64,000 nt of DNA, taken from positions 92,619 to 156,618 of IMG/VR virus record IMGVR_UViG_3300042691_008788. One strand, given 5' to 3'. The notes below the pieces were generated by a model. It was given only the letters and a program-made list of their open reading frames with translations, had not been told where the DNA came from and searched no databases. Both the position numbers and the translations under genes were made by a program. This document shows, in pieces, positions 2,259-61,292 of this stretch. Positions within the stretch are counted from its first letter, which is position 1. Each line of letters opens with the position of its first letter. This stretch comes from a virus.

Positions 2259-5200
2259 CTATGAGTAGATCGGAATATTTTCAAAGGCTATGTCTGCAAA
2301 CTGCGGTAGGCTTTGCTTGATTGCCTGTAGACCAGATGAAGAAAGTTTGAAGTCTTTGTTTCCATAATTTAAGAACCATCCAGATCCTCCAGCCACACTT
2401 GCAAAAGTTATACCACCAATAGTAAACCCACCATAAAGAGTTCCACTTGCAGAATATACCTTCTCAAAGAAAGCATATGTTGCCCCCGTTGTCGTACCTA
2501 TACAAACATTGTTGTTTGCTATCACAAGATTAGATGGATTGTTTATCTGAGATAGATTTAGTTGAATGTTTGTTCCATCAAAAGACATTATGCTGGTTAG
2601 ATGAGGATATTGACTCACCCAAGGCAAATTTCTGATGTCAACCTTGTTGTATAAACCGAAATAATCGCTATTACCTTGCTGCATGGTGGCTTCACCATAA
2701 TTTGTTTCATAGTACGAGTACGGAGTATATCCATATCTACGATCCGTTGTTGGAATTGTACTAGACCTTTCAAGCCACTCATCTCCATCAATGTTAAATG
2801 TGGAATACTTGAGTCCATTTGCTTTCCATAGACTGTTCCAGTTTCCTTCATTGAATTTCACAAATGTTGATGGTCTAGTACATTCTATGAAAATATTGTT
2901 ATTGATTTTGATGTTTGTTCCGCCGATGAAGATGGCGTTGTCAACATCAGACATTGTGCTACCGCATCGATAGAACACATTTCTTATGATGTTGTCGCCA
3001 CCACCGCTGTAATCGAAATATATTGCACAAGCATTGTGTAGAGAATCAACTCCGCATATTCCATAATAAGGTCCACCTGGCAAGCGGGATCCGATGTTGT
3101 TAAAGAAGTTTCCACGAATGACATTTCCCACATGAGATGGGTCTGCATACTTGTAGACAGCACCCATGTCATCGTTGTAGAAATTTAGATTTGTGAAGTT
3201 GTTTGACTCTATTATATTGTTGTTACCAGAGTAGTCTATTCCCTTTCCATTTCCATCAGCAATCAATGTCTTTTGTATGATGTTTCCGACACCAGACATT
3301 TGAATTGCAGCACCGTTTGAACTGGAAAGTCTACCGAAAGACTTTATAACACAGTTGCTTACTACATTGCCAGATCCCGATAGTGTTTGTCTATTTCCAC
3401 CAGTTAGAATTATTCCCTTGAGTCCAATGTTTCTTATATCGCAATTATCAACCGTGGCGGTAGTTCCATCAAGAATGACAACGCCATTTTTTCTCATATT
3501 CCGAATCTTGCAATTTTTCACCACTACATTGTTGCACTGATTTATCTCAACCGCAGAACCAGAGCATGTATCAAATATCAAACCATCTATAACAATATTG
3601 TCACTTCTGTATAGTTTGAACAAAGATGCCAATGTATCTCGCGTGTTACTCGGATCCTTTGTTTGTATAACCTTAGATGCATCATATTCAGGTGTTCCAT
3701 CGCTCCAATCAACACCACTAGATGTTCTTGAAGAGGACACCCGAATCTTTGTTCCAGAAGTTATTCCAACTGGAGGTATAAAATACAGAGTATCTGATAG
3801 ACCAGAGGTGAGAGAACCAGAGTTCAATCTGTTTCTGCTGATGTAATACTCACCAGCAGTGTCGAGTTCTTCAGGGACATTAAGAGCAAACCATCTTCTT
3901 GGTGAGGGATTTGCTGGAACATATGATGTACATGATGTAACGCCAGCGATTCCATATGCCGAATCAGACGAGCGAACCGTGATATTTCTTGTTGCTGTGT
4001 TTATAGAATCGATTCTATAGGCTTCATCATTCCAATCAAATCGCCAGAAGCCATGAACATAGATGTCACTGTTTGGCCCAACTCTATCAGACCATCTTGT
4101 TATTCCACTATAGTCTATTCCATAGCACACACCAGAAGGATATCTAAACACCCCGAAAGTAAATCCTGGTGATGTAAAGGCAGATCCAGAACCAGATTCA
4201 ATAACGCTTTCGATTATTGCACTTGAATCAAAACTAAATTCCGATGATTCCGCTCCAGTTGCTATGCTTGGGAATCTTGCTAGTGTGAGTGGTTCACCAT
4301 TGAATGATATTTCAGGAAGTGTTGGTATGTCTTTGAAGCCAAGTCTTCTTCCGTTATAGACATCAACAGTAACACCAGCAATAGGATATATTGGCTGTGT
4401 ATATCTTATGTTTCCGAAAACGCCGACATCTATCATGCCGAAACCATTTCCATCATTCAAGTTGACCTTGTATATGCTTCCGCGAACAGATGGCTTGAAC
4501 CTTTCGTACATAGGATCAGCACTGTTTATCAAGGTCACACCAGCAACATCTAGAGTCTTTGCACCAGTGATTATTACTGAATCTTGTTGAGTAGCACGAA
4601 TCGTCAATGGTTTGTCCGCTTCGCCACTGTGAGTAGAATTAAATTCCACAGTTTCCCCAAACAACTCGTAAACACCAGGCATCATATCAATAATGATTGG
4701 CAAAGTACCAGTATAGGATGCAGCAATATTCAACGCTCTTCCTATTGTTTGAACTGGCGACGAAACACCATCAGAGGCATCATCTCCGCTCATGGAAGAA
4801 ACACTTATTGTGTAGTAATCTGGAGTTGCATTAAACTGGCTTTGATATACAGGAACGCCATAGGATGCAGGAGCCTCCAACCAAACTCCTCTCTCACCAG
4901 ATGCAATTGCAATAGTATCAGGAAGATTTGGTTGACTTGTTCCTTGCTTTACAAACACATTCTTTCCTGCTGGTGCCGTGAGTCTCCATAGTCTCTTATT
5001 TGGATCGTTTGTATATGCACCACTTACAAGTATATTTGTACCAGCCTGATGCAGATCGATTCTGTCCACAAGACCCGAGGTAGAACCAGTAGAGTCACAA
5101 GGAGCAGCAACCTTATTTCCACTTATTTCTCTCCATTCTACAAGTGCAGAATTTACTCTACTTAGATCTTTACCAGCAGGGTCTCTTGTATTGAATACGA

Positions 5201-8200
5201 TAAACTGATTTGTTCCAGCAAGACAACTGTGGAAAATATCTTCTTTATAGTATTCTTCAGAAAGTGGTCCCGTGAATCCAACAGAATTGTTGAAGACATT
5301 ATGTGGACCAGAAATTATAAGGAAATTCAATCCCTCTGATGGTGCCTGTGGCCTTGATCTCAGAATTGCTCTTACTTTCTTTTGATTGTGTATCAATCCT
5401 TGATATGCCTTATTTCCAAATGTTATTCCTCCCTCTGATACAGGGTGAAATCCAAATCTTTTTCCAAACCTAATAGATTCATCAGATGACACAGATGGAG
5501 GATATCCATAATCTCTTATGAGATAATCTGCCATTTCAGCATACAAGTGATGTGAATGTCCATAGCCAGGAAGTTTTATTGCTACCCTAGACAATCCACC
5601 TGGGTCAACACCATATCTTGCTTCTGCTGGTGTCATTTCATGTACTTCAGATGAAGTCACTATAGTGTTCTGAAATCCAGGAGTTTCTCTCAATGAATCT
5701 CCTATTATCTTTGATTTCAAATCACCTTGTGTAAACACATAAAGTGCTGTAGACCAAGCAAATGCAGTTTGTCTAGTTTCATCACTTTGATATGCATTTT
5801 TGAAGTCTTGTCTGCTTGCCACATTCGTGAAGTAAGACAATAATGCTTCGGCACTTGCTCCACAAGCACCAGCAAATCCATTTGGATCCATATAGGTCAA
5901 TCCATCATACCAATGCTTAAACTCCTGAGCAAATGTTCTATTTGTAATGCTTGATGTGATACCATTGAATCTGGCATCGTTCACTATTGCATATGTCTGA
6001 CGAGCATCTGGTATAACTTTGAAGCCATTGTTTGGATCATTTGCCCAATTCAATAGTGCTGCTGTGCTTCCAAGATCTGTTCTTGACAAATAAGGACCAG
6101 CAACTGCAAACTGATCTCCCCATGCTTCTGAATCATCGTGAAGATATTTGAATAACATTTCATCATTTTTGGCTTGACTCAAGAAGTTCAAGAATGACTG
6201 TTTTGCTACAGATCTATTTTCATATGCCCATGGAGTCAAGAACCTGATTGGGTTTGTGTCTGTAAATGCACCCCATGTTCCGCCAAACTCTGTACTTAGG
6301 AATGTGAGTCCACCAGCGGCACCAGTGTATGTCGTTCCATCTGTAAGTTTCTTAAAGTAATAGTGTGGTTCACGATGGAATCCAGGAGGTCCATCAAGAA
6401 GCCAGTACTGTGGTTTAAGCATTCTTCTTTCATATGGTATCTGAGCAGCCAATCTCTTATGTGCGCCAAAAATGTCCGAATATGTGTCTGAAGTAAATGT
6501 CATTCCCGCAGTTGAACCTGGTCCATCTCTATATCTGAAATAGTTCAAATCTACACCAGGTGTATTATCAACATGAAGCATTGGGACTATAGAAGGATAA
6601 AGCGATTGACCGTCTGGTCCTGTTGCTGCTGGTGTCCACGAAACTCCCCATACCGCAAAATCCAATGCTCTAAAGAATCCAGTTCTTGAAGTGTCGGGAG
6701 GATCAATCAATCCGTTTACAAGTTCTTCATGTAGTTCGTTGAAGTACAACGAATCAAGACCAGTTGTAATCCCACCTTTCATGCAAGCATACAGCAACTC
6801 AAACTCGGATGTCCTCGCAAACCCAGTCCAGAAATTCTGTGGTGGTTTTGTTGGTGTCTTTCTATTTGGAAATGGGAAGTTTGAAACAACTGCCGCATTT
6901 CCAATCATTTCCATATTTGGTCTAAACTTATTGTTTAGTGTCTTGTCAAACCATCCAGACTTATTGAGATGATTGTAATAACCAACGCCATCATGGAAGT
7001 AATCAACTATACTCATGTTGAGTGCCAACATGGTTGGATACAAATAGAACAATCTAAATCGTCTGTCGTTTATCCATGGTACTTGTTGTTCGAAATCTCC
7101 ATTAAATATTGTTCCAGTTACACCTTTCCATGAGATATCACCGTTGTTTTCCACCTCTGTGAAAACATTGTAAAAGAATGGATACGCACTCATCACTGAT
7201 TTGTTGCTATCAGAGGAATCTTCTGGTGTGCATACTGCCATTATCTCGCCAAGTTCACTTGTTCCACAGATACCCATACCCCAAATCGAATTAGAATAGG
7301 TAAGACCCCATTTTCTCTGTCCAAGCAACATGTCATGACCTGATGTAAACAAGTCGTTGGCTTTGTCGCTATCCAAACACCAGTGTCTTGGATTTGTGTC
7401 TCCATTGAATCTTCTCTGATCATTTCGCGTTGGATCAATTAGCCCAACATCATCCTTGAACATGTATTGAGCAAATCGCTCAACACCAAGAACAACACCA
7501 CCAGTTGCATCTGGACCAGAGTCACCGAATGTATAGTTGTATTGATCCCTTGCCCATTCTACTGGAATATTCTCGACATAACTTGCACCAGAACTTGCGA
7601 TGTTTGTCCACAAGGTATAACCAGGTGCTTGCCATTGATGGAATGTTCTTTCTATAACTGCACTTGCATCCATGATGACATGTGCAAATCCATCATTTGG
7701 TGACTTGAATTTTTCCTTCCAATGTGATACTGATGCATCAAGTCTCCACTTGAAGTAATCTTTATTTCCTTCTACTGTTGGATCTTTGTAAAGACCAAAA
7801 GGAATACGCATCTCAAAGCCAGTTCCATATGGAAGGCATCCAAGATAAGCGATGAACTCCATTGAGTTTCCCCATGCTGCGGACAAATCATTCAAGGATT
7901 GGAGAAGTCTGTTGCCGTAACCATAGGAGATGCCAACAACATCAGTCATCGGAGGTTTGAAAGTAAGTTCCGTCAAGTCTTGTGGACTATCGGGAAAAGT
8001 CATTCCATTGAATAGAATCAGAGTTTCATAAGCAAAGCAAAGTCCCGCTCTTTCGTTTACTTGCCCCCACCAAGTTGAATAAGTCAGTGCTTCGGGATAT
8101 CGAATCCACGGAGAACCAACCAGCACTTGATCAGCAGAGTATCCACCACCAGTTCTTCCGTAATCATTAAATCTAACTCGCGATACTAAACCAGCAGGAA

Positions 8201-9077
8201 AACAGAGTCCGCTATACGCTGTATTCAAGTTTGCATCAGTAACACCATTCACAATAACACCAAGTTCTGCTGATCTTCCACCAAACACATCTACATTCAA
8301 CAGATCGCTAACTGTTGTGTTTTCCCGTAATAGCAAATACATGTCAAACTGAAATGATTCAGCCGTATATCTGTCGGACAACCAAGGATATCTTCTCCAG
8401 TTGCCAACGAGTGAATTCATCGGACTGGAAAAGTTTCCGTATGGACTATGGATTACAGAACGACGAATACAGTTGTCATAGTTTGCACTTAAGCCCATGT
8501 ATAGTTGCGACGGGAGAGAGTTGCCAGGATACCAATCAAACTTTGGATGATAACCAAAGAAAGCGTTGCCACCATCAAACAAGAAATCCTGTGCATATAT
8601 TCCATTCAAATTATACTGAACAAATTTATTCGACGCTCTCTGTGGACTTCTTGCTCTATCAAACTTTTTGTATGCAGTTCTAACAGCAGATGCAAAATCC
8701 CTTGGGTGAGTCAATATATCAAACCAACCATCATCACCATTTGTAGTATAGTTGAACGATGCCTCAACAGTTCCACCCAGTATTAGCGGGTTGACAGGAG
8801 CAGATATTCCAAGCAATTCCATGGTTGCTGCTTTACCTAAATCAGCAGTAGCAGCAGACCAACCTGGCTCGTATCTATTGATCAAATAATTGAATACACG
8901 ATTAAACTTTTCCTGAAACTCTGGATCTGGTGGAGTTGTTATAATCGTGGGAAAATCACTTGGTGGTCTTGTGCCTTGATCGTTGAATGCGGACTCAAAA
9001 GGATTAACGCCAGAAAACTTTGCGTTTATCAACTTTACCTTGTAGTTGTTCAATACCCGTATATTAGTTATTCTCAT
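2259..9077 (-). CDS. Giant 2272-aa multi-domain protein with a C-terminal right-handed parallel beta-helix (pectin-lyase fold, GH141-like); probable virion-associated glycan depolymerase
   Basis: From aa ~1418: GDDASDG..PVQTIGRAL, PGVYEL, LTLARFP, YVHGFWRFDWND, EELDTAGEYY, then beta-helix rungs (NVVVKNCKIRN, GNVVSNCVIK, NNIIESNNF, DMGAVY, AIYFD). The N-terminal two-thirds is aromatic-rich and globular-looking but unassigned. Confidence 0.7.
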   Translation of the reverse strand: MRITNIRVLNNYKVKLINAKFSGVNPFESAFNDQGTRPPSDFPTIITTPPDPEFQEKFNRVFNYLINRYEPGWSAATADLGKAATMELLGISAPVNPLILGGTVEASFNYTTNGDDGWFDILTHPRDFASAVRTAYKKFDRARSPQRASNKFVQYNLNGIYAQDFLFDGGNAFFGYHPKFDWYPGNSLPSQLYMGLSANYDNCIRRSVIHSPYGNFSSPMNSLVGNWRRYPWLSDRYTAESFQFDMYLLLRENTTVSDLLNVDVFGGRSAELGVIVNGVTDANLNTAYSGLCFPAGLVSRVRFNDYGRTGGGYSADQVLVGSPWIRYPEALTYSTWWGQVNERAGLCFAYETLILFNGMTFPDSPQDLTELTFKPPMTDVVGISYGYGNRLLQSLNDLSAAWGNSMEFIAYLGCLPYGTGFEMRIPFGLYKDPTVEGNKDYFKWRLDASVSHWKEKFKSPNDGFAHVIMDASAVIERTFHQWQAPGYTLWTNIASSGASYVENIPVEWARDQYNYTFGDSGPDATGGVVLGVERFAQYMFKDDVGLIDPTRNDQRRFNGDTNPRHWCLDSDKANDLFTSGHDMLLGQRKWGLTYSNSIWGMGICGTSELGEIMAVCTPEDSSDSNKSVMSAYPFFYNVFTEVENNGDISWKGVTGTIFNGDFEQQVPWINDRRFRLFYLYPTMLALNMSIVDYFHDGVGYYNHLNKSGWFDKTLNNKFRPNMEMIGNAAVVSNFPFPNRKTPTKPPQNFWTGFARTSEFELLYACMKGGITTGLDSLYFNELHEELVNGLIDPPDTSRTGFFRALDFAVWGVSWTPAATGPDGQSLYPSIVPMLHVDNTPGVDLNYFRYRDGPGSTAGMTFTSDTYSDIFGAHKRLAAQIPYERRMLKPQYWLLDGPPGFHREPHYYFKKLTDGTTYTGAAGGLTFLSTEFGGTWGAFTDTNPIRFLTPWAYENRSVAKQSFLNFLSQAKNDEMLFKYLHDDSEAWGDQFAVAGPYLSRTDLGSTAALLNWANDPNNGFKVIPDARQTYAIVNDARFNGITSSITNRTFAQEFKHWYDGLTYMDPNGFAGACGASAEALLSYFTNVASRQDFKNAYQSDETRQTAFAWSTALYVFTQGDLKSKIIGDSLRETPGFQNTIVTSSEVHEMTPAEARYGVDPGGLSRVAIKLPGYGHSHHLYAEMADYLIRDYGYPPSVSSDESIRFGKRFGFHPVSEGGITFGNKAYQGLIHNQKKVRAILRSRPQAPSEGLNFLIISGPHNVFNNSVGFTGPLSEEYYKEDIFHSCLAGTNQFIVFNTRDPAGKDLSRVNSALVEWREISGNKVAAPCDSTGSTSGLVDRIDLHQAGTNILVSGAYTNDPNKRLWRLTAPAGKNVFVKQGTSQPNLPDTIAIASGERGVWLEAPASYGVPVYQSQFNATPDYYTISVSSMSGDDASDGVSSPVQTIGRALNIAASYTGTLPIIIDMMPGVYELFGETVEFNSTHSGEADKPLTIRATQQDSVIITGAKTLDVAGVTLINSADPMYERFKPSVRGSIYKVNLNDGNGFGMIDVGVFGNIRYTQPIYPIAGVTVDVYNGRRLGFKDIPTLPEISFNGEPLTLARFPSIATGAESSEFSFDSSAIIESVIESGSGSAFTSPGFTFGVFRYPSGVCYGIDYSGITRWSDRVGPNSDIYVHGFWRFDWNDEAYRIDSINTATRNITVRSSDSAYGIAGVTSCTSYVPANPSPRRWFALNVPEELDTAGEYYISRNRLNSGSLTSGLSDTLYFIPPVGITSGTKIRVSSSRTSSGVDWSDGTPEYDASKVIQTKDPSNTRDTLASLFKLYRSDNIVIDGLIFDTCSGSAVEINQCNNVVVKNCKIRNMRKNGVVILDGTTATVDNCDIRNIGLKGIILTGGNRQTLSGSGNVVSNCVIKSFGRLSSSNGAAIQMSGVGNIIQKTLIADGNGKGIDYSGNNNIIESNNFTNLNFYNDDMGAVYKYADPSHVGNVIRGNFFNNIGSRLPGGPYYGICGVDSLHNACAIYFDYSGGGDNIIRNVFYRCGSTMSDVDNAIFIGGTNIKINNNIFIECTRPSTFVKFNEGNWNSLWKANGLKYSTFNIDGDEWLERSSTIPTTDRRYGYTPYSYYETNYGEATMQQGNSDYFGLYNKVDIRNLPWVSQYPHLTSIMSFDGTNIQLNLSQINNPSNLVIANNNVCIGTTTGATYAFFEKVYSASGTLYGGFTIGGITFASVAGGSGWFLNYGNKDFKLSSSGLQAIKQSLPQFADIAFENIPIYS

Positions 9078-9523
9078 GTAGTTGACTCCGCTTCAATCTC
9101 AAACTTACCCGCCATCAACTTGCTGACTATCTCTCCACCATCAACCAACTGTACAAGTTCAACATCATAAAAATAACGACCAGCCTTAAAAGTCGTTGTT
9201 GTATCCGAACTTATCACCATACGCATGAAACCCGTATTACCACCAAGGAAAAATATCCCATCCTGTACAAAGCCCTGTGTGCTTCCAGGCTGAAATACTT
9301 GAGTGGCTGTGCTTCCAAGTGTGAATAAAACGGGATCTCTGTACTTAGACTTCTTGATCTTCATTCTTGCTCTGTAATCATCTAATGAGTAGACAAGTGT
9401 ACCGAACTCATTTATAGATGAGTTTAATATAGACAATGGCTGAAGATCATCTGTAAAAACTTGAAATTCAAGAACGAAAGTAGAACCTTGCTCAAGTGAA
9501 AGATCGTTGTTTAGTGCTGGCAT
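9074..9523 (-). CDS. Beta-sandwich adaptor-like structural protein (BppU/LtfC-like), paralogue 2
   Basis: DLSLEQGSTFVLEF, ARMKIKKS and GRYFYDVEL...LMAGKFEIEAE motifs; ATGA overlap with the giant gene. Confidence 0.6.
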   Translation of the reverse strand: MPALNNDLSLEQGSTFVLEFQVFTDDLQPLSILNSSINEFGTLVYSLDDYRARMKIKKSKYRDPVLFTLGSTATQVFQPGSTQGFVQDGIFFLGGNTGFMRMVISSDTTTTFKAGRYFYDVELVQLVDGGEIVSKLMAGKFEIEAESTT

Positions 9524-20231: not shown

Positions 20232-20238
20232 TATCTAT
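20232..20238 (-). promoter_or_regulatory. Late promoter variant (ATAGATA)
   Basis: Directly after the gp20 stop and upstream of the AGGAG SD of 19914..20210. Confidence 0.45.
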
Positions 20239-21914: not shown

Positions 21915-21937
21915 TCACGATCTCCAAATACTAAAGA

Positions 21938-25282: not shown

Positions 25283-25293
25283 TTTCTCTCCTG

Positions 25294-53563: not shown

Positions 53564-55407
53564 TAGATATTACCGCGAGACACATCGACCGTGTCAACAA
53601 CAATAGATCCAGAAATATTTTCGTCTATTTTTAGTATCTGATTTCTCTTTGGTACAATGTCAAATCTTTGATCTGGCTCGACAGATATTTCGATATAAGA
53701 TAGTTTGTTGCTGCTGTAGGGATTGAAATTAACCAAATTCACTTTTCCTGTTTGATAATCCACCGATCCGATACCACTCTTCAAAACTACTTTAGATCCG
53801 TCCTTTATGGTGTATATTGAAATAGATCCATATCCATCGTCCTCTAAGAAGCAATCGACCAAGAGATTTGTTGATGTGTCTTTATATTTGAACACGGATG
53901 AGTTCAGTATGGTGTTATTGCCATCAAATGGATGGTTCAGTTTTGCTCCAAAATCTAATATGAAAGATGTTGGAGTCTCGCGCGGTATTAGTTTTTTGGC
54001 AAGTTTTGTTGATATCCTGTTACTCACCATTGCCGTATTAGAAAGGTCAACCAATCTTGTGAGAACAGAATATCTGAATGATCCATTGAATTTTTCAAGA
54101 CTAGTATTTGAATAGTTGACTATAGTTGCTGATGCAGAACTACCAACTCTGATATCGCTTTGAGTTGTTCTGGATGAATCATATGTTACAAAACAATTCA
54201 CTTTGATGTATGTGTAGTCTGGGTCAACCAACTCTGGAGTTACGGCTATTACCTTCTTCTTTGACAGAATATTGGTCTTTATTGATTCCTTGGCAGCATC
54301 GCTCAATATTTCCCCACTCTTGGGAAGTATTGATACGAATACCTTACCGTAAACTGGAGGATCATTTTCCTCGCCACCCCAAACTCTAACCGCACTGGCA
54401 GCAGAGTATTCCTTTAGTATTATGCTTTCATAATCTGAAATGGTGACTGCCCTATCTTGAGACTGATAGTACTTTGGAGCGGTGTATCTTATTTGTTCTT
54501 CCGTATCTCTTTCGGCACCACCATATGATGCTGTTACCGTGTCCACACTTGCATCAAAATCATTTCCACCAATACCATTGAAAGTAAATGATGAAGCAGC
54601 ATCGGTATCAGAATTTCCTATTGCATTTCCAGCAGATCCCTCTGTCTGAAAGTAGACTATCATTATGTAACTCTTATCCGCTGGCTTGCTACCAAGTATT
54701 CCATCTCCGAAAGAAATCTCATAGTTTCCTCTAAAGTTTTCATTGATGAAAAATACCTTAGAGGTCGAGTCCAACTGAAGATAGTCGTCATTAACTTTCC
54801 ACGATTCATCCATATTGGATAGATCGGTTGGACTATTCATGACATATATCTTGATCAGACTTTTGTCTATCTTGGCAGAGGGGATCTCAAATCGTATTGC
54901 GTTTATTGTTGAATCGTAAATATACGATGCAGTCTTATAGATACCTTGCCTCACCTCAAGATTGGAAACTTTGTATGGGACAGCATCTTTGTTGACCTTG
55001 AATGAATCAACAGTGCTAAAGGTGTAATTATCTCCATCCTTAGAAGAAAAAAACTTTGTTCCAATCGGGATGTAATTTGGAACTCCAGAGGTAGTTCCCA
55101 TTGTAAGATTCAGTACAGCCGTTGCAGCAGTGCTTGAATTTGGGACATATCCTAGATTTTTACCAAGTGAGACAAGTGATCGCCTCATTACTGCTGAGTC
55201 AATGAAAGACTCTGCTGCCAACATATTTGCATACACAGCCGTGTAGTGTGTATTATAGGCAAGTAGATCAAGAAGAATATTTATTCCCGATCCCTCATAG
55301 TCAAAATCTGAAAATTCAGATGTACCAGAGAGATAAGTCTTTAGATTTTCCTTTATTGCAAAAAAGTCTAATTCTGTCACTGGTGTTGTTACTACACGAT
55401 TTGGCAT
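53563..55407 (-). CDS. gp6: Baseplate wedge subunit
   Basis: ELDFFAIKENLK, FSDFDYEGSG...LLDLLAYNTHY, YEISFGDG, QDRAVTISDY and WGGEENDPPVYGKVF. Confidence 0.96.
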   Translation of the reverse strand: MPNRVVTTPVTELDFFAIKENLKTYLSGTSEFSDFDYEGSGINILLDLLAYNTHYTAVYANMLAAESFIDSAVMRRSLVSLGKNLGYVPNSSTAATAVLNLTMGTTSGVPNYIPIGTKFFSSKDGDNYTFSTVDSFKVNKDAVPYKVSNLEVRQGIYKTASYIYDSTINAIRFEIPSAKIDKSLIKIYVMNSPTDLSNMDESWKVNDDYLQLDSTSKVFFINENFRGNYEISFGDGILGSKPADKSYIMIVYFQTEGSAGNAIGNSDTDAASSFTFNGIGGNDFDASVDTVTASYGGAERDTEEQIRYTAPKYYQSQDRAVTISDYESIILKEYSAASAVRVWGGEENDPPVYGKVFVSILPKSGEILSDAAKESIKTNILSKKKVIAVTPELVDPDYTYIKVNCFVTYDSSRTTQSDIRVGSSASATIVNYSNTSLEKFNGSFRYSVLTRLVDLSNTAMVSNRISTKLAKKLIPRETPTSFILDFGAKLNHPFDGNNTILNSSVFKYKDTSTNLLVDCFLEDDGYGSISIYTIKDGSKVVLKSGIGSVDYQTGKVNLVNFNPYSSNKLSYIEISVEPDQRFDIVPKRNQILKIDENISGSIVVDTVDVSRGNI

Positions 55408-55408
55408 T

Positions 55409-55804
55409 TTATCTTAGCCTCTCTATGCTAACAAACACACTAGACACCTGTCTGTTGTTCAATAGCATGAACGAAATCTGTGTTTCGAACGAGTTTTTCT
55501 TTTCGTTGAAGGAAACAATCACATCATTAACCTTTGCCCTTGGCTCATGTCGATTGATCATGTCTATCAAATTTGACCTTAGTTGCATGGCTATGATCGG
55601 GGTTGCTGGCTCAAATAGGAGTCTTGTTATCCGTGCATCGATGTATGGTTGAAAAGGCTTGTCATGACGATTCATCAAAACCAAATTTCTTATGGCTCTT
55701 TTAACAGCCTCCGCATCCGTCTTTTGAGAGACATCAGCAGTAACTGGATGAGGAGTAAAATCCAAATCCAAATCTTTGAAAAAGTTTTTCCTTATGATGC
55801 TCAT
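55409..55804 (-). CDS. gp25: Baseplate wedge subunit
   Basis: FKDLDLDFTPHPVTAD, AVKRAIRNLV, LLFEP and HEPR. Confidence 0.94.
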   Translation of the reverse strand: MSIIRKNFFKDLDLDFTPHPVTADVSQKTDAEAVKRAIRNLVLMNRHDKPFQPYIDARITRLLFEPATPIIAMQLRSNLIDMINRHEPRAKVNDVIVSFNEKKNSFETQISFMLLNNRQVSSVFVSIERLR

Positions 55805-56439
55805 CTATAGTCTTTCGCTGAATTGAGAAGGAATGACACCTGATCTCGGGTGTATTCCATGTGGGACTTGACATCCGTTTCATCAACATTGTCTATAGTT
55901 TGCAAATCACACCATTCAATTGTTATGTATCCATAAACTACGAGGCTATCGCTGCAAAACAGCGGCAAAATCGAGAAGCCTGTGGTATCATGGAGTTCAT
56001 AGAACTTCTTGGTGTTTGACTCAAACAAAGAAGAGACATTTCTTATATGCGGATTGTTTTCTCGCAACTGCTGTATGATTTCCACGAATCTACTAACAAG
56101 AACATCTTGCCTAAACTGCATGGTAGATGATATTTTTGGATCACAAGATTGATGCGATATGCTCATCCTTCGCATCGAAGACCCATCAGCAAACTTTCCA
56201 CCATTATGAAACTGAGTAAGTGAAACGCGAGAACCCTTGGACTTCATTCGAAGTTCTCCAAGAAGATCAGATATACGCATATTGACTGTATTAAAAGTTT
56301 CCTCGCGTTTTACTGCTCCACGCTTTTTGAAATACCTTATTATTGGTTTAGACGCAATGAAAGCACCTATAGCCGCAGTAATAGCACCCAGAGCGGCACC
56401 AACAACCTCTAACCAACCCTGCAATGAATCCGTAATCAT
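55801..56439 (-). CDS. Putative holin (single N-terminal TM helix plus GAF-like domain, T4 T-like architecture)
   Basis: Start moved to ATG 56439 (GGAGA SD). Hydrophobic segment VVGAALGAITAAIGAFIA, then RVSLTQFHNGG...SISHQ...LPLF...GYITIEW. Confidence 0.5.
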   Translation of the reverse strand: MITDSLQGWLEVVGAALGAITAAIGAFIASKPIIRYFKKRGAVKREETFNTVNMRISDLLGELRMKSKGSRVSLTQFHNGGKFADGSSMRRMSISHQSCDPKISSTMQFRQDVLVSRFVEIIQQLRENNPHIRNVSSLFESNTKKFYELHDTTGFSILPLFCSDSLVVYGYITIEWCDLQTIDNVDETDVKSHMEYTRDQVSFLLNSAKDYR

Positions 56440-56460
56440 TAGTTTCTCCAAAGTAGCAAA

Positions 56461-56467
56461 TATTTAT
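56461..56467 (-). promoter_or_regulatory. Late promoter (ATAAATA) for the holin-like gene and wedge operon
   Basis: Intergenic GATAAATA, 21 nt upstream of ATG 56439. Confidence 0.65.
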
Positions 56468-56488
56468 CAGATACAAATATGACGAATA

Positions 56489-57373
56489 TTAACTCTTCAG
56501 ACTTGGAACAAAATCCAGAAAGTTTACGGGCGCACCTTCTATCTTAGTACCCGTTTCTGCTGCTATATCATCAAGCCCCTTGCTAAAGTCAGGCTGTAGA
56601 ATTAGATTCTTAGCCAACTTTGCGCCGAAGCATGGGTCGGTCAGAGCAGATGATATGATTGTATTTCCCAAGGCATAACGCTCCACAAAGGCTAACGCCA
56701 AGGCAAATGTGTTGTTGTCATTGTTTATGAGCGTCTGAATATTACTCTGTAGCGATAGAGCATTCTGCGTCAACTGCCTCAACTGACCCACCGTATCGGC
56801 TAAACCAGAGGCTCCACCAAGTGCCAACTGAGTTTCGATGTTGGACAGTACGGTTCCTATCTGATTCATATTCTGCCCAAAGTTCTCAAAGAATGGACCA
56901 GATATCTGTGGATTTAGAGACGAGAATGCATTGGAGAAGTTGTCCTCAAGCAACTCACCAGGATCCTTCAGTAGATCCTTTATACTGTTGTAGGCAGACA
57001 TTACTCCTATGATTTGATCCAATCTAGGAAGAACTCCGTTGTCTCCTCCGAGTTGAACACCACTCAGCCGCGCTGTATGGGCATTGAAAGCACTTAGTTC
57101 TGTGTTTAGTCCACTCAAAGCACCATTGAGTTCTTCCAAAGAATTGTTAAATGGACTATCTGCGCCAAGAAGTTCATTCAACTTGTTTTGGTTGCCCCCA
57201 AGTTTTTTGCCAAGTGCTTCCGTTACTTGCTGAACTGGATTTCTGAATGCGTTTCCATCCATGAAATCTGCAAGAAACTTCTTTGCATTTGCTGGTAAAA
57301 GTTGAGATATGAGGCTGCAATTTGCAGCATCAAAGATATTTGGATAACCAGGTTGATTCTGCGGCCACACCAT
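56489..57373 (-). CDS. Hypothetical alpha-helical protein coupled to the PAAR gene
   Basis: 294-aa ORF with TAATG overlap; Leu/Asn/Gln-rich helical character. Confidence 0.6.
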   Translation of the reverse strand: MVWPQNQPGYPNIFDAANCSLISQLLPANAKKFLADFMDGNAFRNPVQQVTEALGKKLGGNQNKLNELLGADSPFNNSLEELNGALSGLNTELSAFNAHTARLSGVQLGGDNGVLPRLDQIIGVMSAYNSIKDLLKDPGELLEDNFSNAFSSLNPQISGPFFENFGQNMNQIGTVLSNIETQLALGGASGLADTVGQLRQLTQNALSLQSNIQTLINNDNNTFALALAFVERYALGNTIISSALTDPCFGAKLAKNLILQPDFSKGLDDIAAETGTKIEGAPVNFLDFVPSLKS

Positions 57374-57633
57374 TAGCCAGCCTCCACATTACTACTTGAT
57401 ATAAGAGTATCTCCGCAACTGGCGGAATCTCCCATCCTACAGATACCTATGCCTCCAACAACCACGCTCTGAGATCCCACAGTCATAGTGGGGGAACTAT
57501 GGGGTGAATCCCCGTGTCCCTTGACCTTGCTGCCAATTATGGCAACGGGAAGACCATTTATCTCAACTGATAAATTTCCAGAGGTAATCAATCCGCCAGC
57601 ACTATCTGCGCCAACTCGACCAACGCTAGGCAT
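57373..57633 (-). CDS. PAAR spike-tip protein (gp5.4-like)
   Basis: RVGADSAGG, VEINGLPVAIIG, HGDSPH and ICRMGDSASCG; downstream of gp5. Confidence 0.9.
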   Translation of the reverse strand: MPSVGRVGADSAGGLITSGNLSVEINGLPVAIIGSKVKGHGDSPHSSPTMTVGSQSVVVGGIGICRMGDSASCGDTLISSSNVEAG

Positions 57634-57830
57634 TAGAAAGAACCCCCGTCAATTTCGGTTATGTTGAATCCAGCCAACAACTCAAATCCAGAGTCATAAA
57701 TGTAAGGCGGTATGCCGTATGTTTCGCGCTTGCAGACATAGGTGAAACCATCATCGCTAAAATACACAACATCACCAACTTTATACCTTACTGATAGGCT
57801 AAAAACCCCACGCCAGTTTAGTGGGATCAT
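57633..57830 (-). CDS. Small protein with a CBM5/12-like aromatic motif
   Basis: WRGVF...YKVGDVVYF...TYVC, ending IDGGSF; coupled to both gp5 and PAAR. Confidence 0.55.
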   Translation of the reverse strand: MIPLNWRGVFSLSVRYKVGDVVYFSDDGFTYVCKRETYGIPPYIYDSGFELLAGFNITEIDGGSF

Positions 57831-58954
57831 GTCAAGTCTCCGACTGGAACGGTTGGATCAGACCCCCCTCGCGGAGAGTTTAGTTTGATCGATGGGGCTT
57901 CTCCCGATAGGAAGACATCCGAGTTCTTGGCCGTCTTGACAACTGCATTCTTACCAGATTTAAGAACGATGTTTCCTTCTGCCTCAACTACAAAGTCGCC
58001 ATTGACTTTGAAATAGCGGCTGTCTTCAACTGTTTCTCTATACTTCTTCTTTACCGTAAGATCTACATTCTTCTCAACTGTGCCACGGACATTTCCCGTT
58101 ACATACAGATTGACATCTCTATCCACTTGTATGTTTAGATCTCCACTATCTTCTCCAGCCCCAATGTATATCTTTGCCGAGCCGTCTACTGTGATCTTGG
58201 CACTACCCTTGATATGGACAAAGTCATCACCAGCCAATATCTCATAGTTGTTTCCTTTGACCTTGTGAACCCGAGTTCCTTTTGGGTCTTTTTCCCAACC
58301 ATTTGCAACTTCCTCAAAACTTCCACCTGGATGATAGGTGTGGTGACGCTCCTTGTCTTTGGTATCATCCCACTCCTCGACCATCCCACTCTCTGTCGCA
58401 AAGACCTTGTTCTTGGGATATTTCGGTTTGTATGGTGACTCTGGCTCAGTCCACTTTTCGACATCATTACTGTCGAGTGCTACTGGAACATCTTTCTTCT
58501 TGTCTTTCTTTCTATCCTCTATCACAGTCTTATCTGTGTTTTCACCAGTGGCTAGAAAGTTAACATCAGAGTGTTTCTTGTCAACATATTCCTTTGTGGG
58601 ATAAGTTTCCGATGGATCATTGAAGCCAAACTTCTTGTTTGCAACTTCATCAGGAATACCGCCAACAGAAAACATAACAACTGGCTGCTGTGCATTTGAA
58701 CCATCTCTGAAAAAACCAAAGACATGAGAACCAGCCACAAGTCCAGTTGGCGATTTACCAACCCCGCTTATGGATGCACTTGTTATGTCTTGCAATGGGT
58801 GCGCCCACGGCAAATCATCCGTAGGAAGCATCTTTTTGTTGGGTGGGTGGTATCCAAAAATACGAACTCGCACCCTACCCAATTTCAATGGGTCATCTGT
58901 GTCTTCAACGACACCAAACCACCAGACGAATCCAGCCTGACCCATTATGTCCAT
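57827..58954 (-). CDS. gp5: Baseplate central spike without a lysozyme domain
   Basis: OB-fold WWFGVVED..DPLKLGRVRVRI, LPWA, VFGFFRDG..AQQP; then YPKNKV.ATESG..EEWDDT and C-terminal beta-helix repeats. Confidence 0.93.
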   Translation of the reverse strand: MDIMGQAGFVWWFGVVEDTDDPLKLGRVRVRIFGYHPPNKKMLPTDDLPWAHPLQDITSASISGVGKSPTGLVAGSHVFGFFRDGSNAQQPVVMFSVGGIPDEVANKKFGFNDPSETYPTKEYVDKKHSDVNFLATGENTDKTVIEDRKKDKKKDVPVALDSNDVEKWTEPESPYKPKYPKNKVFATESGMVEEWDDTKDKERHHTYHPGGSFEEVANGWEKDPKGTRVHKVKGNNYEILAGDDFVHIKGSAKITVDGSAKIYIGAGEDSGDLNIQVDRDVNLYVTGNVRGTVEKNVDLTVKKKYRETVEDSRYFKVNGDFVVEAEGNIVLKSGKNAVVKTAKNSDVFLSGEAPSIKLNSPRGGSDPTVPVGDLT

Positions 58955-59124: not shown

Positions 59125-60432
59125 TTACTCAAACTTGTCGGGGATACCCTTTATCAATGAATCCTTGGCAATATCTATGATGGTTCTGTATCCTATTTCA
59201 GGGTCATTGCTTATTGTATGTTTTATTCCAAATATGAGATATCTGCCACTGAGATATGGATCAACCCAATCCTGTTCATTTTCGGAAAGATATCCAGCCT
59301 TTGGTATGTCAAACTCAATTACATCAAGCAATCGCAAAGATGAATTTCCTGCAACCATTTTGGTAAGTCTAATGGTATTGAACTGCTCAAGAAGACTATT
59401 CCTATATTGAAAGAACTTCTCTGGTGTTTCATTCTCTGCAACATCATCAAACTTTTTGTTTTGAACTGGCAGAAGAGCCATGTTGCCAATATTTGTTTGC
59501 TTCATGGATTTCTCTGTTGCGGGAAGCAGAGGATATTTGTTCAAATGCTTAGATGATCCAAATATATCATCGTAGTTTACTTCATTAGACTTGAATTTCT
59601 TAGTCGTTATATCGTGAGTATAAAGAACACTTGAGTACATACCCATCTTGTATTCTTTTAGTCTGTCGAAGTAAGATCTAACTGTATATTCCTGCGTCTT
59701 CTCAAGAAATCTATTTACATCGGTTTGATTTGCTGCATTATTTGGCTCATATCTAAATTTCATTTTTGGTCTATTTTCAACCTTGGACATTATGTCTGTA
59801 AAATGAAATCCATCAACATCTTCATAGAATACAAAACATGATGGGTTTGATGGAGTTGTTCCTGGAGAAAATGCTCTGTATGCCAACCAGTTCATACAAT
59901 CCAGTGGACTCCAATATGGAAATATAAACTTGAATGTCTTTGAGCCTGTATCACCTATCTCATGCAGTTTCTTGATATCCGCATCCGATGTGAAATTTTC
60001 TATGAACAAATCTCTAACCATCTTTCCGATGGTTCCCTTTTTCGAACATGCTACGCGCATCATTCCATTCTTATACTGTATATCGCTTACGAACTGCAAC
60101 TTGTATACTTGGCCTTTTTCATTAGTTGATCTGCCAAGTCCACGGACAGCAAACACTTTTCCAGTTAGTGTTACTATGTCGGTAGTTCCTCTTGTTCTAT
60201 AAGACACCTGTATAGTCTCATTCCCAACCAACGGTATTGTACCAGAGTAGTTCAACGAATCAGCAATAACAACCTCACCGAACAACTTGTTATCAAATAT
60301 GTTTTCGTAGATATCCAACTCAACAAACTGACTTATCAAACTTACGGGATCTCCACCTCTATTTGAAACTACCGTGAGGGTGAGCAGATCGAAATCGTTT
60401 GGCTTATCGTAAGACTTTGGGTTACTTTTCAT
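59125..60432 (-). CDS. Baseplate hub protein (gp27-like)
   Basis: LDIYENIF...G.V.I.DS, PLVGNE, FIFPYWSP, FVFYED.DGFHF and SGRYLI..IKH; between gp53 and gp5. Confidence 0.75.
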   Translation of the reverse strand: MKSNPKSYDKPNDFDLLTLTVVSNRGGDPVSLISQFVELDIYENIFDNKLFGEVVIADSLNYSGTIPLVGNETIQVSYRTRGTTDIVTLTGKVFAVRGLGRSTNEKGQVYKLQFVSDIQYKNGMMRVACSKKGTIGKMVRDLFIENFTSDADIKKLHEIGDTGSKTFKFIFPYWSPLDCMNWLAYRAFSPGTTPSNPSCFVFYEDVDGFHFTDIMSKVENRPKMKFRYEPNNAANQTDVNRFLEKTQEYTVRSYFDRLKEYKMGMYSSVLYTHDITTKKFKSNEVNYDDIFGSSKHLNKYPLLPATEKSMKQTNIGNMALLPVQNKKFDDVAENETPEKFFQYRNSLLEQFNTIRLTKMVAGNSSLRLLDVIEFDIPKAGYLSENEQDWVDPYLSGRYLIFGIKHTISNDPEIGYRTIIDIAKDSLIKGIPDKFE

Positions 60433-61292
60433 CTAAGTTTATTCTCAATGTCTTTTTCAAGGTTCCCCAGACTCGACTTATTGACTATCAGTATATTTCT
60501 CTTCTCGTCGTTTTTCTCTATTTCGTATTCCCTATTAGTTACCATACCAACTGTATAATCTTCAAAGATGTATCGTCCAATAGGCGTGGCACCAAAAGTA
60601 AATCCCATGTCAGTAGAAGTCAAGTACTCATTATGAAGAGATGATGGTATTCTTGGGTTCAATTCTTCACCATCAGAGTTTTCAAAATGGTGGGCTGCAT
60701 ACGGTGATTCTATGACTTTTCCAATCTTTGCGACATAGTACACAGGTACACCCAATCTGTTCTTACTTGCTCCAGCAATGTAGTCTCCCTCTTGGGGAAC
60801 CCATGCTGTTTTTTGGGTAAACTCCACGACAAGTTTACAATACGCTGGATCATACGAAGCAACCCTACCGTTCTTCAGAGAATCCTGTATTGCTGGCTGT
60901 AGACTAGCACTTGTAACTCCAGTGGCATAGACGATGTCATTGATTCGGAAAGAACCTCCGAAAGCATCAATACCATTGATATCAGTAAGGAACATGGTGT
61001 ATCCAGGATACTTTTCACTGATGTAGTTTTCGAGTGATTGACTACTTAGCATCCAATCGTAATAGGGATTGATTAATTTGTTTATAGTCAATGAAACCCA
61101 ATGAAGATTGACATCTCCATATGTTCTATGAGCAAACATCTCAGGTCGTTCACCATCACGGATGGTGGAGTTTAATGGAAATGACCTTTCTTCTATCAGA
61201 TATTGATCAACATCAAACCTTACGATGATGTCCGTCATATCCTTGAACCCTTGGGGGGTTATGTATGTTACCCTTGGAAATTTATCGTACAT
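60429..61292 (-). CDS. gp53: Baseplate wedge subunit (LysM-like)
   Basis: IRDGERPEMFAHRTYGD..LHWV...N...NPYYDW and VTNREYE...NDEKRNI. Confidence 0.9.
   Translation of the reverse strand: MYDKFPRVTYITPQGFKDMTDIIVRFDVDQYLIEERSFPLNSTIRDGERPEMFAHRTYGDVNLHWVSLTINKLINPYYDWMLSSQSLENYISEKYPGYTMFLTDINGIDAFGGSFRINDIVYATGVTSASLQPAIQDSLKNGRVASYDPAYCKLVVEFTQKTAWVPQEGDYIAGASKNRLGVPVYYVAKIGKVIESPYAAHHFENSDGEELNPRIPSSLHNEYLTSTDMGFTFGATPIGRYIFEDYTVGMVTNREYEIEKNDEKRNILIVNKSSLGNLEKDIENKLR

What the first reader, a model, noticed from the sequence alone, without database searches (positions are those of the whole stretch)
2259..61292. Recurrent G-x-T / G-x-C micro-motif across virion proteins: candidate modification (glycosylation) sequon
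Seen: unrelated structural proteins keep using G-x-T, often clustered. Examples: DGTTYTGAAGGLTF and GGFTIGGITF (2272-aa protein), VGLTGGITF (long sheath), GVTAFTGVTL and GLTGGNT (819 aa), GTTGITY and GATGYT (LamG), GGITGIGLTFG (869 aa), GITGLTL (gp8), GFTFNGGVTW (gp7), GFTFGAT (gp53). The same slot is repeatedly filled by Cys: GACGAS, GICGT, GVCY, GICGV (2272 aa), GVCGA and GICLG (gp14), GSCGG and GICRS (LamG), GACGG (collar), GACGD (869 aa). By eye the motif is much rarer in gp47, UvsW, gp55, portal and terminase. Inference: one tripeptide converging in non-homologous folds, with Thr/Cys (OH/SH) interchange, fits an acceptor site for a modifying enzyme (O-/S-glycosylation) or a docking site for a decoration protein. 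That would be a tail-wide surface modification system. No such enzyme is in this window, and I did not count the motif formally.
Basis: partly seen in the sequence, partly recalled or inferred. Interest (0 to 1): 0.78.

Follow-up and report, generated by a model that had tools for sequence, protein, structure and literature searches.

The report
Candidate Gly-x-Thr glycosylation motif, phage virion
This uncultured marine T4-like phage packs the tripeptide Gly-x-Thr into the outward-facing parts of its particle proteins far more often than chance allows and, like every other phage found with that excess, carries an enzyme of the kind known to attach sugars to that tripeptide, so its particles are probably sugar-coated, although no chemistry has been done.

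Summary
The G-x-T observation is real. In 33 structural proteins of the window it occurs 181 times against about 118 expected (z about 6). It survives 15-residue local shuffles and is the top-ranked of about 1600 residue pairs. Non-structural proteins show nothing.

The G-x-C half is only marginal here (19 vs 9) and does not generalise.

The excess is not a general feature of T4-type virions. T4, Vi01, HTVC008M, two cyanophages and a complete 177-kb relative show none (z -1.1 to 2.2).

It tracks a 425-aa GT-A + TPR glycosyltransferase encoded 3.2 kb upstream of the window:
- The enzyme's fold matches SunS/ThuS over its full length (E about 1e-16).
- Its architecture is that of C. difficile SgtA, which O-GlcNAcylates Thr in G-P-T repeats.
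- All six T4-like genomes carrying it, which form one clade, show the excess (pooled z 14.8).
- So does an unrelated 735-kb phage that carries it (z 10).

The sites are conserved, and Thr is replaced mainly by Ser. They sit in exposed sheath domains and outward-facing proteins, not in the tube, portal or hub.

Best reading (about 0.6): an O-glycosylation acceptor motif coating the virion surface. No chemistry supports this yet. This scan reached the same idea earlier on another T4-like genome.

The parts
2259..9077 (-). 2272-aa virion protein with a C-terminal right-handed beta-helix (PF13229, aa 1821-1961). Strongest G-x-T excess in the window.
   Evidence: G.T 35 vs 15.2 (z 5.7); G.C 6 vs 2.2. 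Pfam. Sites displayed.
9074..9523 (-). 149-aa protein (phrog_1084), paralogue of the 9523-9969 gene.
   Evidence: G.T 4 vs 1.2 (z 2.8). Paralogy at 40% identity.
22532..25282 (-). Long tail-sheath paralogue (916 aa).
   Evidence: G.T 12 vs 7.3. All 12 sites fall in the region aligned to T4 gp18 domains I/II and none in the core.
25294..27201 (-). Tail sheath (635 aa).
   Evidence: G.T 7 vs 4.6. Six of the 7 sites are in the region aligned to gp18 domains I/II.
29387..31846 (-). 819-aa protein of unknown family, between the small terminase gene and gp15.
   Evidence: G.T 17 vs 6.7 (z 4.3) and G.S 13 vs 5.6. In 35 homologues at 51-100% identity each has 11-20 sites against 5-7 expected, and the sites are column-conserved with Thr to Ser exchange. 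AF2 model pLDDT 71; several sites lie just after helix ends.
34430..36370 (-). 646-aa protein with a Laminin_G_3 / concanavalin-like domain.
   Evidence: G.T 12 vs 6.8 (z 2.2); G.C 2 vs 0.3.
37413..39239 (-). 608-aa protein of unknown family.
   Evidence: G.T 13 vs 5.3 (z 3.8).
39250..41130 (-). 626-aa tail fibre protein with a Collar domain.
   Evidence: G.T 11 vs 7.4.
41143..43752 (-). 869-aa tail fibre protein (phrog_4492).
   Evidence: G.T 18 vs 11.2 (z 2.3). Homologues in G005, G006 and G007 are also enriched.
49189..51549 (-). gp8-like baseplate wedge protein (786 aa).
   Evidence: G.T 12 vs 6.8 (z 2.2). Clade orthologues 36 vs 23.8, against 19 vs 17.5 in phages without the enzyme.
51551..53563 (-). 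gp7-like baseplate wedge protein (670 aa).
   Evidence: G.T 11 vs 5.7 (z 2.5). Clade orthologues 52 vs 24.3, against 117 vs 99.7.
60429..61292 (-). gp53-like baseplate wedge protein (287 aa).
   Evidence: G.T 4 vs 1.2 (z 2.7). Clade orthologues 37 vs 12.8, against 5 vs 3.9.
16598..18070 (-). Major capsid protein gp23 (490 aa). No excess in this genome, but enriched across the clade.
   Evidence: 4 vs 3.3 here. Clade total 37 vs 21.3.
20238..22507 (-). Portal (gp20) and tail tube (gp19): interior proteins that serve as internal negative controls.
   Evidence: Portal 0 vs 1.7 and tube 1 vs 1.5. Clade totals 5 vs 8.7 and 7 vs 7.4.
53563..58954 (-). gp6, gp25, two small ORFs of unknown family (216 and 294 aa) and the gp5 hub. 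The named proteins are inner baseplate parts, and nothing in the block shows an excess.
   Evidence: gp6 1 vs 2.7; gp25 0 vs 0; gp5 0 vs 2.2. Clade totals 16 vs 22.9 for gp6 and 2 vs 6.9 for gp5.

Best explanation
G-x-Thr, usually G-[I/L/V/A]-T followed by F, G or A in an uncharged stretch, is the acceptor motif of a phage-encoded cytoplasmic protein O-glycosyltransferase.

The enzyme:
- It is a 425-aa protein with a GT-A domain, a TPR-like domain and C-terminal helices. It is encoded at genome 88175-89452, 3.2 kb upstream of the window.
- Inferred mechanism: the GT-A domain (invariant DADD, residues 90-93) transfers a sugar from a nucleotide sugar to the Thr hydroxyl, and the TPR-like domain holds the protein substrate.
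- Its ancestral substrates are probably the phage's collagen-like (G-A/P-T)n fibres, as in C. difficile SgtA with BclA3.

In this clade the tripeptide has spread into exposed loops and outer domains of the sheath, capsid, neck, outer baseplate and fibre proteins, so the whole outer surface of the virion would carry glycans. A sugar island (NDP-sugar 4,6-dehydratase/epimerase, sugar C-methyltransferase, RmlD-like reductase, GT10-like transferase) would supply and extend the glycan.

Shown here: the motif statistics, its conservation, its location, the enzyme's fold and the co-occurrence.
Inferred: that the enzyme acts on these sites, the identity of the sugar, and the biological role (shielding, stability or adhesion).
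For: 1. The motif is real and specific.

2. It is not a property of the fold class.
- Local-shuffle z is 0.5, -0.7, 0.0, -1.1 and 2.2 for HTVC008M, S-RIM44, S-SSM4, G030 and Vi01. T4 gives z 1.0 by whole-protein shuffle.
- Orthologous core structural proteins give 342 vs 234 in the clade and 351 vs 313 outside it. Non-structural orthologues give ratios of 0.92 and 0.96.

3. Co-occurrence with the enzyme.
- All six T4-like genomes with the enzyme give z 3.4-8.1. Pooled: 1509 vs 1032, z 14.8.
- The prediction made from the enzyme alone held in LR756501. That phage's MCP and portal are only 23-25% identical, yet G.T is 615 vs 412 (z 10) and the top pair of all, spread over 22 unrelated protein groups.
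- The enzyme is rare: 21 of 50,697 phage records.

4. The enzyme is of the protein-glycosylating kind.
- The only PDB sequence hits are GmaR, SunS and 7MSK.
- Foldseek gives SunS 2e-16 and ThuS 9e-16 over about 396 of 425 residues; the next class is at 1e-7.
- The model has pLDDT 88.8 and shows GT-A + TPR.
- The best NCBIfam match is the SunS family.
- SgtA has the same GT-A + TPR architecture. It O-GlcNAcylates Thr of G-P-T repeats and tolerates Ser (PMC7157674).

5. The hydroxyl is under selection. Thr is kept in 70% of cases vs 55% elsewhere, and 50% of replacements are Ser vs 22% (OR 3.6, p about 1e-15; this count is dominated by 35 related sequences).

6. Exposure.
- Sheath sites give 44 vs 20.5 in the region aligned to gp18 domains I/II and 15 vs 14.3 in the core.
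- Tube, portal, gp5, gp6, gp25, gp48 and gp54 show no excess.

7. Every phage with the enzyme, Tunturi_5 included, has collagen-like G-x-T/S tracts. Phages without it have none.

8. LR756501 shares homologues of three of the four sugar-island genes. The clade genomes share at least the dehydratase. The four outgroup genomes searched have none.
Against: - No chemical evidence of any modification exists.
- Among T4-like phages the enzyme-bearing genomes form one clade (100/98). The independent contrasts are therefore few: this clade, LR756501 and, for collagen tracts only, Tunturi_5.
- Tunturi_5 has a 38%-identical homologue but no scattered G-x-T excess.
- G-x-S is not enriched, although SgtA accepts Ser.
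- The enzyme gene lies among early/replication genes (regA, clamp loader, dUTPase). It has only a one-base variant of the late-promoter core upstream.
- Direct sequence comparison with SgtA was not possible.
- The enzyme scores far below the SunS family cut-off (38.8 vs 350 bits).
- Solvent exposure was inferred from domain alignment and secondary structure, not computed.
- I looked for a glycosyltransferase on purpose. Other clade-specific genes were not screened.
Confidence: 0.6

Rival explanations
1. G-x-Thr is a lineage-specific structural idiom, for example a Gly that ends a helix or turn followed by a hydrogen-bonding Thr. It is favoured in the outer domains of these phages for folding or stability, and it has no connection with the glycosyltransferase.
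For: - Several sites in the 819-aa model sit where Gly follows a helix end and Thr precedes the next element, a context with known capping roles.
- Conservation with Thr to Ser exchange is also what a hydrogen-bonding side chain would show.
- Within T4-like phages the enzyme and the motif share a single origin.
- Tunturi_5 has an enzyme homologue without the scattered motif.
Against: - Orthologues with the same fold in sister phages lack the excess.
- The same very specific pair is the top outlier in an unrelated 735-kb phage whose detected links to the clade are this enzyme and three of the sugar genes.
- The motif occurs in alpha/beta, beta-helix, lectin-like and sheath folds alike.
- The excess avoids interior proteins.
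Confidence: 0.2
2. The enzyme glycosylates only the collagen-like (G-x-T)n fibres, as SgtA does with BclA3. The scattered G-x-T sites in globular virion proteins have another cause, such as docking of the glycosylated collagen fibres or of a decoration protein.
For: - Every enzyme-bearing phage has collagen-like G-x-T/S tracts.
- Tunturi_5 has the tracts and the enzyme but no scattered motif.
- The known biochemistry concerns collagen-repeat peptides (PMC7157674).
Against: - SgtA modified short peptides, including one bearing a single Thr, so the collagen triple helix is not needed.
- It is unclear what else would select one tripeptide across dozens of unrelated proteins in two lineages.
- The scattered sites are conserved as individual columns.
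Confidence: 0.13
3. The GT-A enzyme modifies DNA bases or a host molecule, as other phage glycosyltransferases do, and the protein motif is unrelated to it.
For: - GT-A-fold DNA glycosyltransferases exist in phages (bioRxiv 10.1101/2023.12.21.572611).
- The gene lies among nucleotide-metabolism and replication genes.
- TarP, a structural relative of those DNA enzymes, appears among the weaker fold matches.
Against: - The genome has no thymidylate-synthase-like hydroxymethylase and no TET/JBP match, although the TET search had no positive control and the record is 86% complete.
- The full-length fold match, TPR domain included, is to peptide/protein glycosyltransferases, nine orders of magnitude better than to TarP/TarS/RmlT.
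Confidence: 0.05

Closest known systems
SgtA-BclA3 of Clostridioides difficile (spore exosporium O-GlcNAc system)
   Same: - The enzyme has a GT-A domain followed by TPR repeats.
- The acceptor is the Thr of Gly-x-Thr triplets, and Ser is tolerated.
- The initiating sugar is extended by other enzymes in vivo.
- The substrate is a surface structural protein with collagen-like repeats (PMC7157674).
- This phage has (G-A/P-T)n fibres.
   Different: - Here the tripeptide is also scattered singly through globular, non-collagen virion proteins of many folds.
- The enzyme gene is not adjacent to a substrate gene.
- The enzyme is longer (425 vs 358 aa), with extra C-terminal helices.
- Sequence relationship to SgtA was not tested.
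- The setting is a virus particle, not a spore.
SunS / ThuS / PalS glycocin S-/O-glycosyltransferases (PDB 7MSN, 7MSK; TIGR04195)
   Same: - Best full-length structural match (E about 1e-16) and best curated family.
- The nucleophile sits next to Gly in a loop after a helix, and the sugar donor is relaxed (PMC6405829).
   Different: - The score is far below the family cut-off (38.8 vs 350 bits).
- There is no glycocin precursor with a G-C-G-G/S site and no evidence for Cys as acceptor.
- The register of the Gly differs (-2 instead of -1).
- There would be many large protein substrates instead of one peptide.
GmaR of Listeria monocytogenes (flagellin O-GlcNAc transferase)
   Same: Best PDB hit by sequence for the GT-A domain (1.9e-14). 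By my recollection, GmaR is a GT2 + TPR enzyme that O-glycosylates Ser/Thr of flagellin, a surface filament protein.
   Different: Only the first ~108 residues match. There is no flagellin here and no anti-repressor role is expected.
Virion glycosylation of mycobacteriophages (Freeman et al. 2023, PMC10527164, as cited in PMC12619734)
   Same: Phage-encoded glycosyltransferases decorate capsid and tail proteins of the virion.
   Different: There the glycans are at the C-termini of the capsid and tail-tube subunits. Here a short internal tripeptide is distributed over many proteins and the tube is not involved. The enzymes were not compared.

Membership tests
SgtA-type GT-A + TPR protein O-glycosyltransferase system | GT-A catalytic domain with a DxD motif | tested here: met
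   PF00535 at 1.4e-14. D90, A91, D92 and D93 are invariant in 23 homologues. The GT-A fold is modelled at high confidence.
SgtA-type GT-A + TPR protein O-glycosyltransferase system | TPR repeats C-terminal to the catalytic domain | tested here: met
   Helical hairpins at residues 176-344 in the model. Fold matches to OGT TPR and consensus TPR proteins. Homologues carry TPR Pfam hits. The protein's own Pfam TPR hit is weak.
SgtA-type GT-A + TPR protein O-glycosyltransferase system | Collagen-like Gly-x-Thr repeat protein encoded by the same genome | tested here: met
   A 1066-aa protein at genome 60942-64142 has (GAT/GPT)n tracts. The genome holds 104 collagen-like triplets with Thr at the third position in 36%.
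SgtA-type GT-A + TPR protein O-glycosyltransferase system | Enzyme gene adjacent to its substrate gene | tested here: not met
   The neighbours are dUTPase, RegA and the clamp loader. The collagen-like fibre gene lies about 24 kb away.
SgtA-type GT-A + TPR protein O-glycosyltransferase system | Sequence homology to SgtA itself | not tested
SgtA-type GT-A + TPR protein O-glycosyltransferase system | O-linked sugar on the Thr of G-x-T | not testable with these tools
   This needs mass spectrometry or an enzyme assay.
SunS family peptide S-glycosyltransferase (TIGR04195) | Score above the curated family cut-off | tested here: not met
   38.8 bits against a cut-off of 350.
SunS family peptide S-glycosyltransferase (TIGR04195) | Full-length fold similarity | tested here: met
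   7MSN at 2.3e-16 and 7MSK at 9.3e-16 over about 396 columns. 7MSP at rmsd 3.4 A over 286 columns.
SunS family peptide S-glycosyltransferase (TIGR04195) | Cys-rich glycocin precursor with a Gly-Cys-Gly-Gly/Ser acceptor | tested here: not met
   No ORF of 30-130 aa with at least four Cys contains GCG[GS].
Phage DNA-base glycosyltransferases | Pathway producing a hydroxymethylated or hydroxylated pyrimidine (ThyA-like or TET/JBP enzyme) | tested here: inconclusive
   PF00303 is absent, with controls positive. PF12851 is absent, but no control rang. The record is 86% complete.

The most novel reading that the evidence does not exclude
A short, portable O-glycosylation sequon (G-x-T) has been selected into the exposed surfaces of essentially all outward-facing virion proteins in at least two unrelated lineages of large aquatic phages. 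It would be written by a SunS/SgtA-like GT-A + TPR enzyme together with a shared sugar-tailoring toolkit. Glycan-coated tailed-phage particles would then be common in the sea, and recognisable from sequence alone by a proteome-wide motif statistic.
Probability: 0.5. Interest if true: 0.85.

Novelty: new variant of a known kind. Interest (0 to 1): 0.74.

Why it matters
Protein glycosylation of tailed-phage particles has so far been shown, to my knowledge, for only a few mycobacteriophages.

If this reading is right, it would have several consequences:
- A whole, abundant clade of marine T4-like phages, and some of the largest known phages, coat their capsids, sheaths, baseplates and fibres with sugars.
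- That would affect adsorption, stickiness to particles and mucus, protease resistance, recognition by host defences and antibody recognition. It would also complicate interpretation of virion cryo-EM maps and proteomics.
- It would give a simple sequence statistic, G-x-T excess plus the enzyme, that predicts glycosylated virions in metagenomes.
- It would define a minimal tripeptide sequon for a soluble bacterial-type O-glycosyltransferase, which is of interest for glyco-engineering.

Tried and rejected
- DNA-level cause: rejected. Gly and Thr codon usage at the sites equals the background.
- Regional composition: rejected by local shuffles down to 15 residues.
- Shared repeat domain or paralogy: rejected for the window and for LR756501, where there are 22 unrelated groups.
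- Collagen tracts as the source: masked, and the excess remains.
- 'Beta-strand start after a turn' as a general explanation: rejected. T4 and the sister phages lack the excess, and many sites in the 819-aa model are at helix-loop junctions.
- Thr/Cys interchange: no support at aligned sites, and G-x-C is not robust.
- Late promoter in front of the enzyme gene: only a one-base variant (AATACATA) of the usual ATAAATA core. It is also found before the scaffold gene. Weak evidence.
- Search for clade members without the enzyme through the capsid gene: the hits were nearly all short fragments. It yielded only one complete genome, G030, which lacks both the enzyme and the excess; I did not place it on the tree.
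- Glycocin-type peptide substrate: none found.
Full report
**What the window is.** It holds the structural module of an uncultured marine T4-like myovirus, with almost all genes on the minus strand. PHROG and Pfam hits identify gp23, gp22, gp21, gp20, gp19, two gp18 sheath genes, gp17, gp16, gp15, gp14, gp13, gp6, gp7, gp8, gp25, gp5, gp48/54 and gp53. There are also several large proteins of no known family. The record is a 156,618-bp IMG/VR contig, and the window is bases 92619-156618. The closest cultured phage by gp6 is Pelagibacter phage HTVC008M, at 36% identity.

**The observation.**
- In 33 structural proteins, G-x-T occurs 181 times against 117.5-122 expected. That is z 6.0-6.6, whether residues are shuffled over the whole protein or inside windows of 60, 30 or 15 residues.
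- Among about 1600 residue pairs at spacings 0-3, G.T ranks first at z 5.9.
- The reverse and shifted patterns (T.G, GT, G..T) and G.V are flat. G.S is weak.
- Most of the excess is G-hydrophobic-T (95 vs 47).
- Thirteen non-structural proteins give 11 vs 9.7.
- Codon usage at the sites equals the background, and the proteins concerned are not homologous to one another.
- G-x-C is 19 vs 9.2 in this window (z about 3.3), a level at which roughly one of the ~1600 pairs tested is expected by chance.

**It is not a general property of such virions.** T4's 32 structural proteins give 92 vs 83.7. HTVC008M, cyanophages S-RIM44 and S-SSM4, Salmonella phage Vi01 and a complete 177-kb T4-like genome (G030) give local-shuffle z values of 0.5, -0.7, 0.0, 2.2 and -1.1. 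None has a large protein with a strong excess.

**The enzyme.**
- A 425-aa GT2 gene lies 3.2 kb upstream of the window, at genome 88175-89452 on the minus strand, between regA/clamp-loader genes and a dUTPase gene.
- Its only sequence matches among solved structures are GmaR, SunS and 7MSK.
- A confident model (pLDDT 88.8) shows a GT-A domain, TPR-like hairpins and C-terminal helices.
- Foldseek places SunS and ThuS first over about 396 of 425 residues (E 2e-16 and 9e-16). The next class, teichoic-acid glycosyltransferases, is at about 1e-7.
- The best curated family is the SunS family, but at 38.8 bits against a cut-off of 350. The protein resembles that family and is not a member.
- DADD at residues 90-93 is invariant in 23 homologues.
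- According to PMC6405829, SunS, ThuS and PalS glycosylate a Cys flanked by Gly in a loop after a helix, and ThuS also makes O-linkages.
- According to PMC7157674, C. difficile SgtA (GT-A plus four TPRs) adds beta-O-GlcNAc to Thr of peptides from the Gly-Pro-Thr repeats of BclA3. It accepts Ser in place of Thr, and in vivo the glycan is extended.

**Co-occurrence.**
- The enzyme is rare in cultured phages. It was found in 21 of 50,697 records, none of them T4-like.
- It is common in metagenomes: 5347 relatives, many on 90-165-kb contigs.
- Five large IMG/VR contigs carrying it (enzyme 49-57% identical, gp6 30-41% identical, GC 36-50%) all show the excess in structural homologues: z 6.1, 6.05, 5.3, 5.25 and 2.9.
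- A 46-kb close relative has both features as well.
- Pooled over six genomes, G.T is 1509 vs 1032 (z 14.8), far ahead of every other pair.
- A portal+MCP+TerL tree shows that these six genomes form one clade (support 100/98), sister to the cyanophage/pelagiphage group. Within T4-like phages the association therefore counts as a single event.
- To obtain an independent test I predicted the excess from the enzyme alone in LR756501. This is a 735-kb phage whose MCP and portal are only 23-25% identical and whose enzyme homologue is 31% identical over 84% of its length.
- The prediction held. In the 620 kb fetched, proteins of at least 300 aa give 615 vs 412 (z 10.0; local shuffle z 10-12). G.T is the top pair of all. 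G.S, G.V, T.G and G..T are flat. The 27 enriched proteins fall into 22 BLAST-unrelated groups.
- LR756501 also shares a sugar C-methyltransferase (39% identity, 4e-91), an NDP-sugar dehydratase/epimerase and a GT10-like enzyme with this phage.
- In G000 these genes form an island at 70.5-81 kb. The dehydratase has a homologue in every clade genome, the GT10-like matches are weaker and partial, and none of these genes was found in the four outgroup genomes searched.

**The exception.** Jumbo phage Tunturi_5 has a 38%-identical homologue but no scattered excess. It does, however, encode (G-P/A-T)n collagen-like proteins, 115 triplets with Thr at the third position in 58%. Every enzyme-bearing phage examined has collagen-like G-x-T/S tracts, and the phages without the enzyme have none. 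This fits an ancestral enzyme-collagen pair of the SgtA-BclA3 kind, with secondary spread of the tripeptide in two lineages.

**Nature of the sites.**
- In 35 homologues of the 819-aa protein (51-100% identity), each protein keeps 11-20 sites against 5-7 expected. Gly is retained in 31-35 of 35 sequences at most sites, and the middle residue stays L/I/V.
- Over this family and 14 ortholog families, Thr at conserved G-x-T columns is retained in 70% of cases, against 55% for other Thr columns. Half of its replacements are Ser, against 22% elsewhere (odds ratio 3.6, p about 1e-15). Ile, Asn and Gly are depleted. Cys appears once in 183 replacements. The count is dominated by one family of related sequences, so the p-value overstates independence.
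- The hydroxyl is thus under selection, and there is no site-level Thr/Cys interchange.
- G-x-C is weak with local shuffles in most clade members and absent in LR756501. The pooled signal came from Cys-rich proteins of G007, in which G..C is equally high.

**Location.**
- Orthologous core structural proteins give 342 vs 234 in the clade (ratio 1.46) and 351 vs 313 outside it (ratio 1.12). Non-structural orthologues give 0.92 and 0.96.
- The excess lies in sheath, capsid protein, gp7, gp8, gp53, gp14 and gp15. It is absent in tube, portal, gp5, gp6, gp25, gp48, gp54 and gp13. Calling the first group outward-facing and the second interior rests on my knowledge of the T4 virion structure.
- Within sheath proteins, the region aligned to T4 gp18 domains I/II has 44 vs 20.5 in the clade and 10 vs 11.8 outside it. 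The core has 15 vs 14.3. The domain boundaries are recalled from the T4 sheath literature, not taken from a tool.
- The 819-aa model (pLDDT 71) is mixed alpha/beta. Several sites lie immediately after helix ends (245, 298, 384, 695), a context like that of glycocin acceptor loops.

**Rivals.**
- A purely structural idiom fits the conservation pattern and the single origin within T4-like phages. It does not explain why same-fold orthologues in sister phages lack the excess, or why an unrelated huge phage with the same enzyme has it.
- The enzyme may act only on collagen fibres. SgtA, however, modifies short peptides.
- DNA glycosylation by GT-A enzymes is known. This genome lacks a ThyA-like hydroxymethylase, though, and the fold match to peptide/protein enzymes is far better than to TarP-like enzymes.
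- No glycocin-type substrate is encoded.
- The promoter evidence is weak.

**Verdict.** The G-x-T observation is confirmed and turns out to be a lineage trait tied to a protein-glycosyltransferase toolkit. The G-x-C part is not robust. The glycosylation reading is the best supported, at about 0.6, but rests wholly on comparative and structural inference. The same idea was reached earlier in this scan on another T4-like genome (note e1-5684479). I found no published description.

Noticed in passing
window 22532-27201: Two intact tandem tail-sheath genes (916 and 635 aa). They are 44% identical over the C-terminal 500 residues, and the long copy carries about 280 extra residues in the outer region.
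   Followed up: partly
window 15956-16522 and 21938-22507: A second tail-tube-like gene (188 aa, phrog_45, 28% identical to gp19) lies between the capsid gene and a dCMP-deaminase-like gene.
   Followed up: no
window 9074-9969: A tandem pair of 149- and 148-aa paralogues (phrog_1084, 40% identical). One has a weak match to a tail-fibre assembly protein.
   Followed up: no
G000 genome 70566-81046 (outside the window; loci L189, L190): A sugar island: NDP-sugar 4,6-dehydratase/epimerase, sugar C-methyltransferase (Methyltransf_14), GT10 fucosyltransferase-like protein and RmlD-like reductase.
   Followed up: partly
G000 genome 60942-67214 (locus L188/L189): A 1066-aa fibre with (GAT/GPT)n collagen tracts and repeated ~45-aa modules, each carrying several G-x-T. 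It still gives 38 vs 15.9 after the collagen tracts are masked. Further along, after two small ORFs, lies a 531-aa protein with 19% Gly.
   Followed up: partly
G007 (loci L169-L175): Proteins of at least 300 aa average 3.9% Cys, with strong G.C and G..C periodicity (z 5 and 6) and GC depletion. This suggests a family of Cys-rich repeat proteins.
   Followed up: no
LR756501 (loci L281-L311): Thirteen proteins hold 3099 collagen-like triplets, mostly (G-T-S)n, an exceptional amount for a phage. Scattered G-x-T sites there are preceded by Ser or Thr in 44% of cases.
   Followed up: partly
G016 and G017 (contigs behind L116, L128): The capsid-gene matches contain one in-frame TAA and one in-frame TGA respectively. 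These could be sequencing errors, introns or recoding.
   Followed up: no
G000 genome 85692-86747 (locus L190:5692-6747): An N6/N4 DNA methylase gene lies 1.4 kb from the glycosyltransferase gene. Homologues occur in G007 and S-SSM4 only.
   Followed up: no
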